Positions 12,001 to 45,000 of a DNA stretch of 64,000 bases are shown here, one piece after another. The first letter of the stretch is position 1, and the number at the start of each line of letters is the position of its first letter. Position numbers: made by a program. The DNA comes from Thalia democratica (lineage: Eukaryota). The stretch covers positions 105,090,001-105,154,000 of the forward strand of contig OZ241826.1 in NCBI GenBank assembly GCA_965202585.1. Reading direction: 5' to 3'.

Positions 12001-15000
12001 CATACAGCAATTTATGTTCGTCTTCTATCATGTATCCGAAAAACAAATTGGAAGCTACCCAAGAGTAGCTATACAACATACATTTCACTATTTTTACTAA
12101 CGACCCTGCAAGCTTGATGCCATGCATTTATTAAGAGAGCAAATAATATTGAGCTCTTTTAATAACAAGTCTTTTATGTGCTTTAGTTTTCAGTATCTAG
12201 TTGTGCTTATCAAAAAGGAGTAACATTATGATTATTTTGAATTAATATCAATAGTGCAGATCTGTGACCTCAAATTAACTATTTTAGCACTAATCAGATC
12301 TATTACTAACAAGTCAAGAGTTTTTAATTCAGATTTTTTTGTACTAGTAATTCTATCAGAAACTTTATTATTGGTTTAGAGAAAATTTTAACAATGAAAA
12401 GTTTTTTGATTTAAAATGAAGTTTATCACAACTGCATGGATAAAATAAAATTTCAATGGCTAAATAAAGTAGTTTGTTTAAAAGTTATATATCATTTATC
12501 TGTTAGTTTTGTGTAAAAATGTTAATTAAGGAATCAATTTCATTCTTACAGGCACTTTTCTTAAATAAACTAAAAGCATAAATACACCATTAGCTGTATT
12601 GTCAAAATATCGACTGCTTAATGTGGTTATAATTTAAGTATTCTAACGCAGTTTATTACTAAAATACCAAAATATAAACGTTTCTAAAGACTTTAACCGC
12701 AAATTTTTTTTAAGGTGATCATAAACTTACTAAGAGCTAGATGAAGTAGTTTATATTTTACAAAAACGCCATTTATTTTCAAGCTTAAATGAAAAACGAA
12801 AACGTTAATCGTAAAGATAAGTAAATAATTACATTATAAATATTTTAAGAGCATAAGCAACTTAATGCGCTTTTAATTAAATTAAGGTATTTACCTTTGT
12901 GTACATTAATAACAACGTATATACTGCTTTTTAATTATCTTGACTCTACACATGCAATTTTTCCAACATGTTAAATTTTTTTTTTCAAACTGCAGTCTCA
13001 ACTGCAATGTAGTTTTTATGCAGCTAAAACATTTTTTTTTTAAATTGTTCTTTACACATACACGTTCGCTGTAATTAATATTTAATAACGGTTGGTATTT
13101 GAAGCTACTTAATAGGGCTTATACACATTTGAAATATGAATATGATTTATAAAAGTTTACTCTTAAAAATACTTTTAATAACTCTTACGGAAGCAAATAC
13201 GAGTATATTTAAAGCCTCTAATATTGTATTAAATATACTTTAAGTTTCAAGTTTTTTTACGATAATCTAATCTACAACATCAACGAAAAACAATGGATTG
13301 CAAACGTTTCGAAACTTCAAGTTTTAAAAAGACTGTGCTCACACATTCAAACTCTGCAGTCTCGCACGCGCAGTGACGCAACGTAGCTTTTGATTGAGAA
13401 AAGTATTATTTGAAGTTGTACTAAATTTTTATCCCAATAATGCCATTAACTATATATCTGAAGATTAAATTTGGGTTCAATTTAAAGTCACGGTATGTGG
13501 CTAATTTAGACAATAGAATAAGCGTAAATTTTACTTTTAAAAGTTTTATGAAGTAAACGAACTTGAATAATTGTTTTGTCTGTATTTAAAATTGGTAGTT
13601 TTACTATAAATTACAAAACGAAAGTTTTACTATAAATTACAAAACGAAATGAATTTGAAAGAATAAATTCATTATTTCTCCTCAAGTAGTTGAGATCTCT
13701 CTATTTGTTTTCTTAAAACCAAAACATATAATAAATTGGAAAACAGTTAAATTTTTTAAACATTTTAAACCTTTTTTTTTTTGTTTTACTGCGCACATGC
13801 ATTCAAAATCTGCAGTCTCGCACGAACAGTGACGTAATATAGCTTTTGATTGAGAAAAGTGTTATTTGAAGTTGTACGAAAATTTAAGCATGTGCGTACA
13901 GTTAACACAGGTTTTTTCCAAACAGGTTCAAATTTAAAGCCACGATATGTGGCTAGTATTAAATAATTATGTAAACATAAATATTACAAATAAAAAGTTT
14001 AATGAAGCTAACTAATTTAAATAGTTGTGTTCGTATTTAAAGTTGGTGTTTTATACCATAAATTACAGCACTGTTATTAAGTTGTGACATTTTAAAGCAT
14101 TTTTTAATATTATGTTACTTTCGTACCTTTTTCTAATATATTTCCGCAATATAATAAATTTAATTCTCGTTATATCATCTAGTATTCTTCCACAGTTCGT
14201 ATTCGCCAAAACACACGAAGCTGCTTGCTTCAACTAACTTCAGTAAACATACATGAATAAAAATATAATTTAACTAACTTAATACTTTTACAGTATTATT
14301 TTCAGTTTGGACTAAAAACTTCTCGTTATAAACCAACTTATAATATTTATCTTATAACTTTATATTTATTTTACAGTCGGTTTCGCAAAATCACCAAAAA
14401 CTTCTTTTTTTATAATAATTTTTAATATTTTATAACTTTTTATTTTTTTTTAGTTCGGATTCGCGAAAACACCAGAAAGTTCTTGTTTTAAAATCACTTT
14501 GATATTTTGTAAATATTTTACAATTTATTTTATTATTATTTAATTTTCAGTTTGGATTCGCGAAAACACCAGAAACTTCGTGCTTGTGGGTCGAAGGAGA
14601 TGCCAGCGAAAGTTTTTTCAAAAAGTTTGTTTTTTTATTTTATTTTTGATAAATTTATGTTTAAAAACTTATTTATAATTATATGTTTCAATAAATTCAA
14701 TTTATGAGTTTTTAGATTGAAAATTATTTTTATGTATTCAAAAAAATTTTCATTCAACATTTTAATATATGCCAGTAAAAGTTTATCTAAAAGTTTGTTT
14801 TTGTTTATTTTCAAATCCCTTTTTTAGTAAATATACTGTTTAAATTAAGAAGTTTCAAAAATTTTTTTTAAATTCAAATAATATTAAGCGCTTTTTTTAG
14901 GTAAGTGAAATTAAAAAAATTAAATATTAATATTTTTCAAAATTGGAGTTCGAAAAGTTAATGTGGTTGATAATTTTTTTGGTGTTTAAATTATTTACTT

Positions 15001-42000: not shown

Positions 42001-45000
42001 ACAGCTCAGCAATGTTGGAACGAGACGAACTCCGCTTACAAAACCTGATGAAGTACAACGACGAAACGTATGTTGGAAATGAAAACGAGCAGAGACAACT
42101 GGAAGAACTTCAGAGGCAGTTGGATGAGCTCAATAGGAACGACACCAGTAAGGGATTCTTCAGTTGTTTCGTTGAAAAGCATAATGAGGAGGAGAACAAG
42201 AACAAGGCGGATCTTTTCTGGAAGGACATGGATACGAGGTCTTTGAGATTTGTGTAAAAGTATCTGCATGAATAAAAAAAAATTATAGACAAATTGGCTC
42301 TTTTTAAAAGGAAATGCTTGCTTTATTAGAAAATTTATATTGTATCTCATTAAATGAATTTAAAGATAGCTTTGCATTGCCTTTAGTTTTTAATAACAAA
42401 TTATATAATATCTTTTAGTAGTTTTAGGAGTATTTAAAAAAAGTTTTGTACTTGATTTTTAGAGCATGAATTGAAAGTTTTTATAATTATTTTATGTCTA
42501 CTCTAAGTAGTGTTTGCAATTTGTTGGAAAAAAACTAATAAACTCTTTATATTGTATGTTAAGTTGTTGTTATAATTTAAAATTTGTTTATTGGGATCAA
42601 AAAGGTTTAATTACACTAGTTTGAAAAAATAGTATTGGACTTTTTTTTATAAAGATCTTAGATCTATTTAAATATTTGAAAAAAATATTTTAGTTTAATC
42701 TATTGAATTTAGTAGCTTTATAGACCCTTATATAGTTGTGAATAATTTTTTTACCTTGAAAAGTTAATTGGGGTCCATTAAGTTTTTGTTTTAGAGTATT
42801 TACAAAAAATTTAAAACTGCTACAGTGATCTATGTGAAATAAACAAGTTAATATTTTGTTTAAAAAAGTACTACAGATTAAGTAATGAATGTGTTTTTGT
42901 TTTGTTTACAGAAGTAAACGAATATAGTACTTCTAACAAGTATTTTTTAGGCGTAACTACAGCAAATACTAATATTTTTTTTTAAATTCTAACACATTTA
43001 TATATAATCTTCATTAAACTTCATAGTCTTCTCTTAGACCGCGGTTTGTTGATATAGTATATTGTTGTTAATATTTATTTATATTACCAATTTATATAGT
43101 TTGTGTCACCTACTTGAATATGAACGTTTCATGCTTGTGATAGTTTGTAAGTCTTGTCCTTAATTGTATTTTTTTTAAATGCTGTGAAAATTTCATTTCA
43201 CCCAAATATTAGAAGTTAAAGGTGTCAAATCTAAATATCTTTTGTTTATTGAAAAAAAACTTATACGAATAAATAAATAAAAGATTATGATAAGCACAAT
43301 CAAAATAAAGAAACTTTAAACCTATTATTCCAAATAAAAAATAAATAATATTTAAAATAAATGGAACTTATTTATTAGTTAAAACTGTTTTTTAGTTATA
43401 TTTTTTAGTGATTACTAAATTCATTTTAAAACAGACTATTTATTTTAAATTTGTAAGTTTATTACTTGAATTTTGTATGAAAAAGCGTAATAATGTTCAA
43501 AAGCGATAAAATGACCAATACCTCTAAATATATTAATAACAAAACATAAAATAAAACCAATCAATGTATCAATAAAACATAAAACAATGTAATATTTTAC
43601 AGATAAAAACATATTAAAGCCTAGGAATTGGATGCATTTTCTGTTGACTTTTTGTTCATTTGTTTTAAATGCTTTACGCTATGGTTAGAGGACGTAACAT
43701 ATATATATTATTAATAATACGCTACGGTTTTTTGATACAACTGTTTACCTAGCTTATCGATAGACTAGTTCATCATTCAAGTTATTAGATTGATAATAAC
43801 ATGAAAAATAAGTCAATACACTCATATTCAAGCATGTTGCAATAGTGCTTTAATAATATTACACACCTACAATTCCTTCTGACGAGCCTCAGTTCTACTG
43901 ATTTTTGTAATGCACAATATTACATCATACTGTTTTTTTATTTTTTTGCATAACTTTTGTACAGTGCTTTTTATTTTGAATTTAATTGGCTGATGATTAA
44001 AGCTTTATGAAACATATGTACCATTATTTTTAAAATCTTACTTTTTCAATTAATTATTTAAAAGCCTTTCAAGTGGGCTCAGTAGAAGGTGTTCAAGTTT
44101 GAATAATAACCTTATTTTATATATATATATATATATTTGACTTATAGCTAATTTTCTTATGACGTCACTATTAAACACATTACTACCCTTCATTAAAACC
44201 AACTGAAGTAACATTGAAGCGTTATATACTAGTTTAACGACTTTTAACTTATTTTTAATACTTTAATCTTCTATGACGTCATAATCAAGTATACTACTTG
44301 TACAGACACGAGAGCATATTCTCCTCACCCTCGAAACCTGCGCAAAAAGTTGAGAAAGTTCCTCCGAAGAACATTTTCGAGCTGATGCTGTCGCCCGACG
44401 CGGGAGGAGGAACGAGTAAAAGTGAGGAGAAAATATTTTTTTTATTTTTGGTCTATTAATATTATGATTTGTCCTTTAAAAATAACCTACACTGAAAGTT
44501 ATTACTTGGTTGTACCTAAATTAAGAAGAAATTTTTCAATAAAATAAGTTTCGAGTTTAATTATCTTTCTGTTTTATCTCTAAAAATGAAATAAACAGTA
44601 CGATCTTTTAACGTAGACACACTGGATAATTTTAACATCATTTTCTCCTGTTCAGAGATACCAGCGGCTTCATCCATTACGTCTTCATCCAACAAAAATC
44701 AAGAGCATTCAAAAAACTTTTCAACAACCAATGAGCATTCAAAAAACTTTTCAACAACAAATGAGCATTCAAAAAACTTTTCAACAACCAATGAGCATTC
44801 AAAAAACTTTTCAACAACCAATGAGCATTCAAAAAACTTTTCAACAACCAATGAGCATTCAAAAAACTTGCACCCTCTCAGTGATCAGCCGGCTTGCGCT
44901 GGGAGCGGAACTGTCAACGCCGGCAACGCGACTACTGTGACGTCACAACCGGACGTCGCGTCGCACAAGGACGATGCGTCACAACACGAACGCGCGTCGT

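What the first reader, a model, noticed from the sequence alone, without database searches (positions are those of the whole stretch)
14185..42060. Recurrent 'exon echoes': tandem partial duplications centred on splice sites at six exon boundaries of one gene
Six of the first twelve exons have adjacent intronic copies of one exon end with or next to its splice site: acceptor side at 14551, 15997, 17982 and 42005; donor side at 36066 and 36829. Ages range from near-identical to barely alignable. Several differ from the live exon mostly at synonymous positions, which neutral decay of a dead copy does not predict. Possible explanations (inference): the copies were or are coding alternatives; live exons undergo fast directional GC3 change; or duplications arise between diverged alleles.
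Basis: partly seen in the sequence, partly recalled or inferred. Interest (0 to 1): 0.68.

Follow-up and report, generated by a model that had tools for sequence, protein, structure and literature searches.

The report
Half-exon copies beside splice sites
Small tandem duplications have left non-coding copies of exon ends, splice site included, inside the introns next to six exons of a long gene, and these copies differ from the working exons at silent codon positions more often than simple decay of a dead copy explains.

Summary
Six exon boundaries (acceptors 14551, 15997, 17982, 42005; donors 36066, 36829) carry 18 intronic copies of the exon end on the same strand, all within about 520 nt.

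- **What they are:** head-to-tail duplications with 75-264 nt between copies that straddle one splice junction.
- **Not coding now:** no copy can be read into the message in frame, so today they are decoys.
- **Position:** 6 of 9 local repeat families lie on a boundary against 1.7-2.7 expected (P 0.002-0.015). Part of this is a visibility effect, because the intron-derived spacers have faded to background similarity.
- **Silent-site bias:** it is real and specific to the true frame. Even so, there are 75.7 synonymous differences against 32.6 in a dead-copy simulation (maximum 50.8 of 400).
none fits all families.

Verdict: a known kind of mutation with an unexplained, coding-like divergence pattern. 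Interest is moderate.

The parts
14196..14230 (+). Echo A0: oldest copy of the head of exon 14551-14624, preceded by AG
   Evidence: 27 of 35 identical. Read in the live phase it meets a stop after 13 codons.
14375..14404 (+). Echo A1: copy of the same exon head, shifted by a 1-nt deletion
   Evidence: 22 of 26 identical in the local alignment and 26 of 35 in the ungapped scan. It lies within the TRF array 14314-14520, period 78.
14454..14488 (+). Echo A2: copy next to the live acceptor, AG kept
   Evidence: 31 of 35 identical. Peptide 10 of 11 identical, E 2e-4. Stop after 29 codons.
14551..14624 (+). Live exon a (head 14551-14585 is the copied part)
   Evidence: Open frame, AG before it and GTTTGT after it, phase agrees with the next exon.
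15593..15650 (+). Echo B1: copy of the head of exon 15997-16181, AG lost
   Evidence: 25 of 36 identical. Peptide 12 of 19 identical, E 1e-5.
15833..15893 (+). Echo B2: copy of the same head, broken by a 13-nt internal tandem duplication (15847-15877), AG lost
   Evidence: TRF period 13. Local alignment 12 of 15. Peptide 7 of 12 identical, E 0.13. The spacers after B1 and after B2 align well.
15997..16181 (+). Live exon b (head about 15997-16054 is the copied part)
   Evidence: GC3 0.73 for the whole exon and 0.88 in the copied head.
17471..17997 (+). Family C: 5.2 copies of a 101-nt unit. Each of the five intronic copies holds an acceptor plus the first 16 nt of exon 17982-18064 (copies start at 17479, 17580, 17681, 17780, 17881).
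   Evidence: TRF 96% matches, score 998. Self-BLAST 96-99%. 22-23 of 23 identical in the scan. Stop after 7 codons in the two copies run.
36016..36066 (+). Tail of live exon h (35895-36066), the copied part of family D, with donor AAG|GTTTGT
36105..36155 (+). Echo D1: copy of that tail with an identical donor 9-mer
   Evidence: 47 of 51 identical. All 4 differences are synonymous and the peptide is 17 of 17 identical. Donor 9-mer kept.
36191..36241 (+). Echo D2: second copy, donor 9-mer kept
   Evidence: 40 of 48 identical. Donor 9-mer kept.
36297..36347 (+). Echo D3: third copy, GT lost
   Evidence: 40 of 48 identical. The site reads AAG|ATTTAT.
36782..36829 (+). Tail of live exon i (36668-36829), the copied part of family E, with donor ACT|GTGAGT
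36872..36919 (+). Echo E1: copy of that tail, with an in-frame TGA and the donor lost
   Evidence: 41 of 46 identical. Codon table. Donor lost.
41487..41541 (+). Echo F1: copy of the head of exon 42005, AG kept; 19 codons, then a stop overlapped by AATAAA
   Evidence: 41 of 55 identical. Peptide 16 of 18 identical, E 6e-7. Stop and hexamer.
41630..41684 (+). Echo F2: copy with a 1-nt insertion (frame broken), AG kept
   Evidence: 43 of 54 identical with one gap..
41769..41823 (+). Echo F3: copy that looks like a mosaic of F4, F2 and F1, AG kept
   Evidence: 34 of 47 identical. Codon table. Peptide 13 of 18 identical.
41891..41945 (+). Echo F4: copy next to the live acceptor, AG kept; 24 codons, then a stop with AATAAA
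   Evidence: 46 of 55 identical. 7 synonymous against 2 replacement differences, peptide 17 of 18 identical.
42005..42253 (+). Live exon F (head 42005-42059 is the copied part). Its end is 42238 or 42253; both donors fit the phase of the next exon.
13332..14067 (+). Tandem duplication (offset 456) of the putative promoter and first-exon region just upstream; not in the finding
   Evidence: Self-BLAST 74% over 292 columns. In the alignment the first 100 columns are conserved except at some 15 positions.

Best explanation
These are minisatellite-like tandem duplications with 75-264 nt between copies, and each straddles one splice junction. Every round leaves, inside the intron, a decoy made of a splice site plus 16-58 nt of exon end.

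Shown: the decoys are not part of the reading frame today.

Inferred: they are tolerated because a half exon lacks its partner splice site and the rest of the exon, so it is not defined as an exon.

Inferred, with partial support: their position at splice junctions comes largely from a filter. Duplications of a whole exon or inside an exon damage the message and are removed. Duplications wholly within these low-complexity introns (about 20% G+C) fade below recognition quickly. Junction-spanning ones are harmless and stay visible because they carry exon sequence.

The silent-site bias has two layers. Roughly half is the ordinary effect of purifying selection on the live partner. The rest, about 2.3 times more synonymous differences than a dead-copy model gives, shows that part of the divergence accrued while both versions were held to the same peptide. 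I cannot say how. Changes private to single echoes look neutral, so whatever constraint existed has ended.
For: - **Tandem structure:**. There are 18 copies, all on the same strand and within about 520 nt of their exon.
- **Splice signals:** 11 of 14 acceptor-side copies keep AG in register and 2 of 4 donor-side copies keep the live donor 9-mer.
- **Not coding:** stops after 4-29 codons, stops in both donor read-throughs, and only trivial in-frame cassettes of 9-21 nt.
- **Filter:** spacer identity exceeds its shuffled baseline by more than 0.1 in only 2 of 13 adjacent pairs, with 0.63 gap nt per aligned column. The exon-derived parts have 0.045.
- **No whole-exon copies:** none was seen, and the other 7 of 13 exons examined have no echo.
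- **Enrichment:** 5 or 6 of 9 families on a boundary against 1.7-2.7 expected.
- **Dead now:** changes private to one echo are 10 synonymous to 20 replacement, near neutral. Those private to the live copy are 12 to 3.
- **Frame-specific bias:** observed over expected replacement differences is 0.58 in the true frame and 1.02 and 1.18 in the other two.
Against: - The dead-copy model fails. Across families there are 75.7 synonymous differences against 32.6 simulated, maximum 50.8 of 400. The probability of the observed synonymous share is 0.0075 for F, 0.0175 for D, 0.04 for B, 0.10 for A and 0.215 for E.
- The pooled ratio of synonymous to replacement excess is 3.5-3.6, against a simulated median of 1.65 and a maximum of 2.9 in 300 runs.
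- G/C of the live copy is A/T in the echo at 49 of 99 third positions but only 30 of 165 first and second positions. For the five neighbouring copies the counts are 15 of 36 and 6 of 61. This holds for C and for G, inside and outside CpG.
- A filter alone does not explain why all six cases sit in one gene, while the later exons examined (k and the large exon) and the two other local repeat families beyond 42.3 kb, which by my reading lie in introns, show none.
- Pairs within a family are not independent, and the simulation rests on a simple substitution model.
Confidence: 0.5

Rival explanations
1. Some echoes are or recently were in use as coding sequence. The four copies before 42005 would act as alternative terminal exons, giving a shortened protein that ends in nearly the same 16-18 residues as the head of the live exon.
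For: - F1, F3 and F4 keep AG, the live phase and an open frame of 19-24 codons. In all four F copies the first in-phase stop lies within 10 nt of an AATAAA, where the chance of a hexamer in a 40-nt stretch is 0.13.
- F4 differs from the live head by 7 synonymous and 2 replacement differences, F1 by 6 and 2.
- Changes private to F1 are 3 synonymous and 0 replacement.
Against: - The four hexamers are copies of one another, so they count as one observation in A+T-rich sequence.
- F2 is frame-broken.
- The idea cannot serve the donor-side families D and E, where read-through and cassettes are closed, yet D shows the strongest bias.
- Truncation after exon a or b would give peptides of a few dozen residues.
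- No expression data are available.
Confidence: 0.18
2. The copies were already diverged when they were joined. Unequal exchange or template switching between diverged haplotypes, or with a paralogue, captured a second functional version of the exon end. Homology between such partners ends at the exon edge, which would also place the breakpoints there.
For: - It accounts at once for the position, for silent-only differences in copies that can never have been translated in place (D1: 4 synonymous, 0 replacement), and for spacers at background similarity beside well-kept exon parts.
Against: - The silent-site difference is 0.3-0.6 per site while replacement difference is 0-0.05 in A2, D1, F1 and F4. 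As far as I recall, that is far above allelic diversity in known animals.
- Family C is 96-99% identical and plainly arose within one haplotype.
- No paralogous exon copies were found in the window beyond the echoes themselves.
- The rest of the genome could not be searched.
Confidence: 0.12
3. The echoes are plain dead copies, and the live exons changed unusually fast at silent sites. The cause would be a rise in GC3 or selection to sharpen exon definition against the neighbouring decoys.
For: - Within codons that keep their amino acid, the live copy has G/C where the echo has A/T 45 times, against 17 the other way.
- In family B the live head has GC3 0.88 against 0.35-0.40 in the echoes.
- Private changes in echoes look neutral.
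Against: - By my own arithmetic on the counts, and assuming a fourfold mutation bias toward A/T, A/T-to-G/C substitution at third positions would have to run several times faster than neutral.
- The introns right beside these exons are about 20% G+C.
- By my reading of the codon table, differences in A2, D1 and F4 run about equally in both directions.
- Exons h and i show the same bias at GC3 0.25-0.31.
Confidence: 0.1
4. Splice junctions are true mutational hotspots for tandem duplication in this genome. Candidate causes are the sharp change in composition or pyrimidine tracts that favour slippage. On this view the enrichment is not a filter effect.
For: - 6 of 9 families on a boundary, P 0.002-0.015 under three placement schemes.
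- 5 of 6 families have grown to two or more extra copies.
- A seventh duplication covers the putative first exon.
Against: - The sample is one window.
- Spacers fade to background, so intron-only duplications of like age would go unseen.
- No echoes at the 7 other exons examined.
Confidence: 0.15
5. Assembly artefact: haplotype variants stacked in tandem.
For: The differences between copies look allele-like (silent).
Against: - There are up to five copies per site with graded divergence, units of about 100 nt and no N in the window.
- Spacers are unalignable rather than allelic.
Confidence: 0.03

Closest known systems
Internal (intragenic) tandem duplications, including tandem genomic duplication as a source of introns. 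Sources: Gao and Lynch 2009, recalled and seen only as a reference entry in PMC3443670; review PMC3443670 and PMC2891723, passages read; PMC3265369, search listing only.
   Same: Small head-to-tail duplications inside a gene that copy splice signals. The message stays intact because only one of the duplicated sites is used.
   Different: Those cases copy exon sequence holding an AGGT and so create a new intron the size of the duplication. Here the unit spans an existing junction, nothing new is spliced, and the introns are 0.6-14 kb. Neither recurrence at six junctions nor a coding-like divergence pattern appeared in what I read.
Clusters of mutually exclusive exons born by tandem exon duplication (PMC3228551, title and start of abstract in the listing; PMC6071210, abstract).
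   Same: Tandem copies of exon sequence with flanking intron. The copies are alike at the peptide level and differ at silent sites.
   Different: The echoes are half exons. They lack the other splice site and the rest of the exon, do not keep the frame, and cannot replace the live exon.
Intronic minisatellites (established knowledge, recalled).
   Same: Unit sizes of tens to hundreds of bases, variable copy number, mosaic copies such as F3, and young homogeneous arrays such as family C.
   Different: The unit includes a working splice junction, and the end copy is the live exon.
Comparisons of pseudogenes with their parent genes (established knowledge, recalled): a ratio of replacement to silent divergence near one half.
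   Same: One partner decays while the other is constrained, so a silent-site bias is expected.
   Different: The pooled ratio here, from my sums over the 13 pairs, is about 0.2. That is well under one half, and the simulation of that very model is exceeded.
Decoy splice sites, pseudoexons and intronic polyadenylation (recalled).
   Same: Intronic sequences that look like exon ends. The F copies combine an acceptor, a short frame, a stop and AATAAA.
   Different: Usage is untested. Here the decoys are copies of the adjacent real exon.

Membership tests
Junction-spanning tandem (internal gene) duplication | Head-to-tail direct repeats on one strand, adjacent to one another | tested here: met
   TRF arrays at 14314-14520, 17471-17997, 36016-36287 and 41509-41829. 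Self-BLAST offsets of 82-518 nt.
Junction-spanning tandem (internal gene) duplication | The repeat unit holds both intron and exon sequence, with the live exon as the end copy | tested here: met
   Alignments run across the AG or GT in all six families. Splice dinucleotide kept in 11 of 14 acceptor copies and 2 of 4 donor copies.
Junction-spanning tandem (internal gene) duplication | The similarity is more than chance | tested here: met
   15 of 18 copies are the only matches of 68% or more on either strand of the window. The other three rest.
Mutually exclusive exon cluster | Sequence homology between the exons | tested here: met
   Peptide identity of 58-100% over 9-19 residues.
Mutually exclusive exon cluster | Similar exon length, with both splice sites present | tested here: not met
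   Homology stops after 16-58 nt. No copy of the remainder of any exon was found.
Mutually exclusive exon cluster | Reading frame conserved, so that a copy can replace the exon | tested here: not met
   Only trivial 9-21-nt in-frame cassettes, and stops after 4-29 codons.
Intron gain by tandem duplication of an AGGT-bearing exon segment | The new intron is bounded by the two copies and has the length of the duplication | tested here: not met
   The units include pre-existing intron tails or heads. The introns are far longer than the units.
Neutrally decaying dead copy of a constrained exon | Synonymous excess no larger than selection on the live partner alone gives | tested here: not met
   75.7 synonymous differences against 32.6 simulated, maximum 50.8 of 400. 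Ratio 3.5-3.6 against a simulated maximum of 2.9.
Neutrally decaying dead copy of a constrained exon | G/C lost at the same rate at all three codon positions | tested here: not met
   49 of 99 third positions against 30 of 165 first and second positions. Not explained by base type or CpG.
Neutrally decaying dead copy of a constrained exon | Changes private to a copy are neutral in kind | tested here: met
   10 synonymous to 20 replacement on echo tips.
Intronic-polyadenylation terminal exon (family F only) | Acceptor, in-phase open frame, stop and AATAAA nearby | tested here: met
   The four copies are not independent.
Intronic-polyadenylation terminal exon (family F only) | Transcripts that end there | not testable with these tools

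The most novel reading that the evidence does not exclude
Exon ends are repeatedly duplicated by exchange between diverged functional versions of the gene, because usable homology between such partners stops at the exon edge. On this reading the echoes are fossils of earlier or alternative live exons kept in the adjacent intron. The process would be tied to exon-intron structure and would leave a readable archive of past coding states.
Probability: 0.1. Interest if true: 0.8.

Novelty: new variant of a known kind. Interest (0 to 1): 0.5.

Why it matters
Junction-spanning duplications put perfect decoy splice sites in the positions that, as I recall the proximity rules, the splicing machinery tends to favour. 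A gene carrying 18 of them is therefore a natural test of how half exons are ignored.

If the coding-like divergence of the echoes is general, intronic echoes could be used to date and polarise changes in exons without an outgroup. It would also point to a duplication process linked to exon boundaries. If it is local, it may mark hidden short isoforms of this gene.

The practical lesson for annotation is that exon-like hits next to real exons may be echoes, not alternative exons.

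Tried and rejected
**Gene identity.** Pfam scans of 20 translated stretches, each sent singly (18 single exons or open frames of the + strand genes, 1 separate 499-codon open frame and 1 minus-strand open frame), gave nothing above the curated cut-offs. One exon sent to the protein atlas gave only a weak lead to RNA-recognition motifs (score 0.90, 159 shared features). The large exon had no relative among solved structures. All searches were exon by exon. I built no joined spliced model and searched with none.

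**RNA genes.** No Rfam family and no tRNA in the window.

**Echoes as coding cassettes or mutually exclusive exons.** Rejected on phase and stops.

**Mundane causes of the silent-site bias.**
- Base-type bias: a permutation conditioned on base type still gives 0.58.
- Wrong-frame control: ratios of 1.02 and 1.18.
- C against G, and CpG context: the bias holds in each class.
- Choice of alignment: automatic local alignments and curated codon alignments agree.

**Ideas rejected by reasoning, not by computation.**
- Gene conversion between echo and live copy would erase silent and replacement differences alike.
- A visibility bias cannot explain the neighbouring copies, which are 84-92% identical.

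**Paralogous exon copies.** None elsewhere in the window.

- Orthologues, outgroups, other haplotypes and a genome-wide test.
- Gao and Lynch 2009 is not held. I consulted no supplementary files.

I do not take the window for human: G+C is 21-45% per 2 kb with introns near 20%.

Full report
**Setting.** The window has no N and is A+T-rich, 21-45% G+C per 2 kb. On the + strand a multi-exon gene runs from about 13.9 kb to beyond 50 kb. I placed exons from open frames, splice dinucleotides and reading phase:

- a 14551-14624
- b 15997-16181
- c 16843-17045
- d 17982-18064
- e 18380-18575
- f 18884-19145
- g 20972-21301
- h 35895-36066
- i 36668-36829
- j 40072-40295
- F 42005-42238 or 42253
- k 44306-44415
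- a large exon from 44656

Phases agree from a to g and from h onward, but not from g to h. Either an exon is missing in the 14.5-kb gap or these are two genes. Exon GC3 ranges from 0.25 to 0.73, while the introns alongside are near 20% G+C.

The gene could not be named. Pfam, one protein-atlas query and one search of solved structures gave nothing usable. These searches were made exon by exon, and I made no joined spliced model. I do not take the sequence for human.

| Family | Boundary | Copies |
|---|---|---|
| A | acceptor 14551 | 3 |
| B | acceptor 15997 | 2 |
| C | acceptor 17982 | 5 |
| D | donor 36066 | 3 |
| E | donor 36829 | 1 |
| F | acceptor 42005 | 4 |

- The copies were read, and found by TRF, self-BLAST and alignment.
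- A scan of both strands with each exon end finds matches of 68% or more only at these sites, all within about 520 nt and on the same strand. 15 of the 18 copies pass it. B2, F2 and F3 rest on local or peptide alignments.
- Ages run from 96-99% identity (C) to 27 of 35 (A0).
- 11 of 14 acceptor-side copies keep AG in register. D1 and D2 keep the full donor 9-mer of the live site, while D3 and E1 have lost GT.
- The other seven exons examined have no echo.
- A seventh duplication, not in the finding, covers the putative promoter and first exon.

**Are they coding?** No, not as they stand.

- Read in the phase of the live exon, the acceptor-side copies meet a stop after 4-29 codons.
- Using a donor-side copy would add 89 or 90 nt that contain stops.
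- The only in-frame, stop-free cassettes are trivial, 9-21 nt with poor donors.
- The echoes fail three of four criteria for mutually exclusive exons. They lack the length, the second splice site and the frame, and keep only the homology.
- One lead remains. Each F copy ends its short frame at a stop within 10 nt of an AATAAA. It could therefore serve as a terminal exon of a shortened isoform. The four copies are not independent and usage is untested.

**Is the position at splice junctions more than chance?**

- Self-BLAST finds 17 families of local direct repeats in the window, 9 of them in 14185-42260.
- Five of those nine span an exon boundary on BLAST coordinates alone. The count is six once the B alignment is extended into the exon, as the peptide match shows.
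- Against random placement, 1.7 are expected (P = 0.015 and 0.0024).
- Keeping each family inside its own exon-dense or exon-poor segment gives 2.7 expected (P = 0.011). Also forbidding lethal placements gives 2.1 expected (P = 0.003).

Two things temper this. First, the intron-derived spacers inside these same arrays have faded. Spacer identity beats its shuffled baseline by more than 0.1 in only 2 of 13 adjacent pairs, and the spacers carry 0.63 gap nt per aligned column, against 0.045 in the exon-derived parts. An intron-only duplication of the same age would therefore be invisible. Second, duplications of a whole exon or within an exon would damage the message. A filter of this kind explains much of the pattern. 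It does not explain why all six cases sit in this one gene.

**The silent-site bias.**

- Over 13 echo-live pairs, replacement differences are 0.58 of what random placement of the same base changes would give in the true frame. The ratios are 1.02 and 1.18 in the two wrong frames. Automatic alignments give the same picture.
- I simulated exactly that model: A+T-biased mutation, a live lineage shared within each family and closed to replacement changes, and neutral echoes with ages set from the observed replacement differences.
- The simulation gives a synonymous share of 0.33-0.42. The data give 0.50-0.65 in all five testable families, with P of 0.0075 (F), 0.0175 (D), 0.04 (B), 0.10 (A) and 0.215 (E).
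- In total there are 75.7 synonymous differences against 32.6 simulated, maximum 50.8 of 400.
- The pooled ratio of synonymous to replacement excess is 3.5-3.6, against a simulated median of 1.65 and a maximum of 2.9 of 300. A test across families against the value 2 gives P = 0.0035.
- A test that needs few assumptions agrees. G/C of the live copy has become A/T in the echo at 49 of 99 third positions but at 30 of 165 first and second positions. For the five neighbouring copies the counts are 15 of 36 and 6 of 61. The contrast holds for C and for G, inside and outside CpG.
- Against any present-day constraint, changes private to one echo are 10 synonymous to 20 replacement, close to neutral. 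Those private to the live copy are 12 to 3.

**What explains the excess?**

- *Use in place.* Structurally possible only for family F, as terminal exons. It is impossible for D and E, yet D shows the strongest bias.
- *Fast silent evolution of the live exons.* The pooled lean fits (45 against 17). By my reading, the lean comes mainly from B and E, and A2, D1 and F4 differ both ways. The rate needed, by my rough arithmetic assuming a fourfold mutation bias, is several times neutral. The neighbouring introns show no sign of it.
- *Capture of already diverged functional versions.* This explains position, bias and faded spacers together. It needs silent divergence of 0.3-0.6 between the partners, more than I know for alleles, and the rest of the genome could not be searched for a paralogue.
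- *Gene conversion between echo and exon.* By my reasoning it cannot produce the pattern, because it erases both kinds of difference.

I therefore commit to the following. These are junction-spanning tandem duplications that are decoys today, made visible at junctions in good part by a filter. They carry a real surplus of silent differences whose cause is open. Confidence is 0.5 for the whole statement and much higher for its first part.

**Comparison with what is known.** The nearest described kind is internal tandem duplication within genes, discussed mainly as a source of new introns. I read passages of PMC3443670 and PMC2891723. I saw PMC3265369 in a listing only. Gao and Lynch 2009 is recalled and not held. 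Clusters of mutually exclusive exons share the tandem origin and the silent divergence, but they are whole exons (PMC3228551, listing; PMC6071210, abstract). My four literature searches turned up no account of recurrent half-exon copies at several junctions of one gene, nor of coding-like divergence in such copies. That is no proof that none exists.

**What stayed unchecked.** The organism and gene name, orthologues and outgroups, other haplotypes, expression, and the genome-wide frequency of such repeats.

Noticed in passing
window 1981-6291: Two 568-nt direct repeats, 99.5% identical (1981-2548 and 5724-6291), flank a 484-codon open frame on the minus strand (4350-5801). That frame itself holds a 132-nt tandem repeat (4594-5105, 3.9 copies, 93% matches). 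It looks like a recently inserted mobile element with long terminal repeats. No Pfam family reached its cut-off.
   Followed up: partly
window 114-12900: A unit of about 1.8 kb recurs four times at 66-88% identity (for example 136-1981 against 6292-8113, and 7458-8515 against 10330-11485). The insertion above interrupts it.
   Followed up: no
window 13332-13615 and 13788-14067: Tandem duplication of the putative promoter and first-exon region of the gene. In the alignment the first 100 columns, which include a TGACG motif, are conserved except at some 15 positions, and similarity then drops where the downstream copy has a possible ATG and donor.
   Followed up: partly
window 44703-44869: An in-frame 30-nt repeat, 5.6 copies at 98% matches, inside the large exon. 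This is a young coding minisatellite in the same gene.
   Followed up: no
window 21301-35895: The reading phase at the donor of exon g (one nt carried over) does not fit the acceptor of exon h (needs two). An unseen small exon may lie in this 14.5-kb stretch, or two genes may abut here.
   Followed up: partly
window 19160-19375, 25738-26063, 34198-34508: Three local direct repeats that lie wholly in introns (88%, 74% and 90% identity). They are the only ones of nine in the span that do not touch an exon boundary. The first starts 15 nt after the donor of exon f.
   Followed up: partly
window 1805-1850, 7939-7983, 19203-19247: A 45-nt motif at 89% identity is shared between the upstream repeat units and an intron of the gene. 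TRF rows list visibly similar short repeats at 7966-8021, 10848-10890 and 11739-11782 (a resemblance by eye, not aligned).
   Followed up: no
window 54396-55892 and 57500-64000: A 499-codon open frame rich in Lys and Glu (GC3 0.66) and, after it, exons rich in Gln and Pro. No Pfam family was found for the pieces tried, and these exons have no echo.
   Followed up: partly
window 14551-46511: Exons of the one gene differ widely in GC3 (0.25 and 0.31 for h and i, 0.73 for b), although all sit in introns of about 20% G+C.
   Followed up: no
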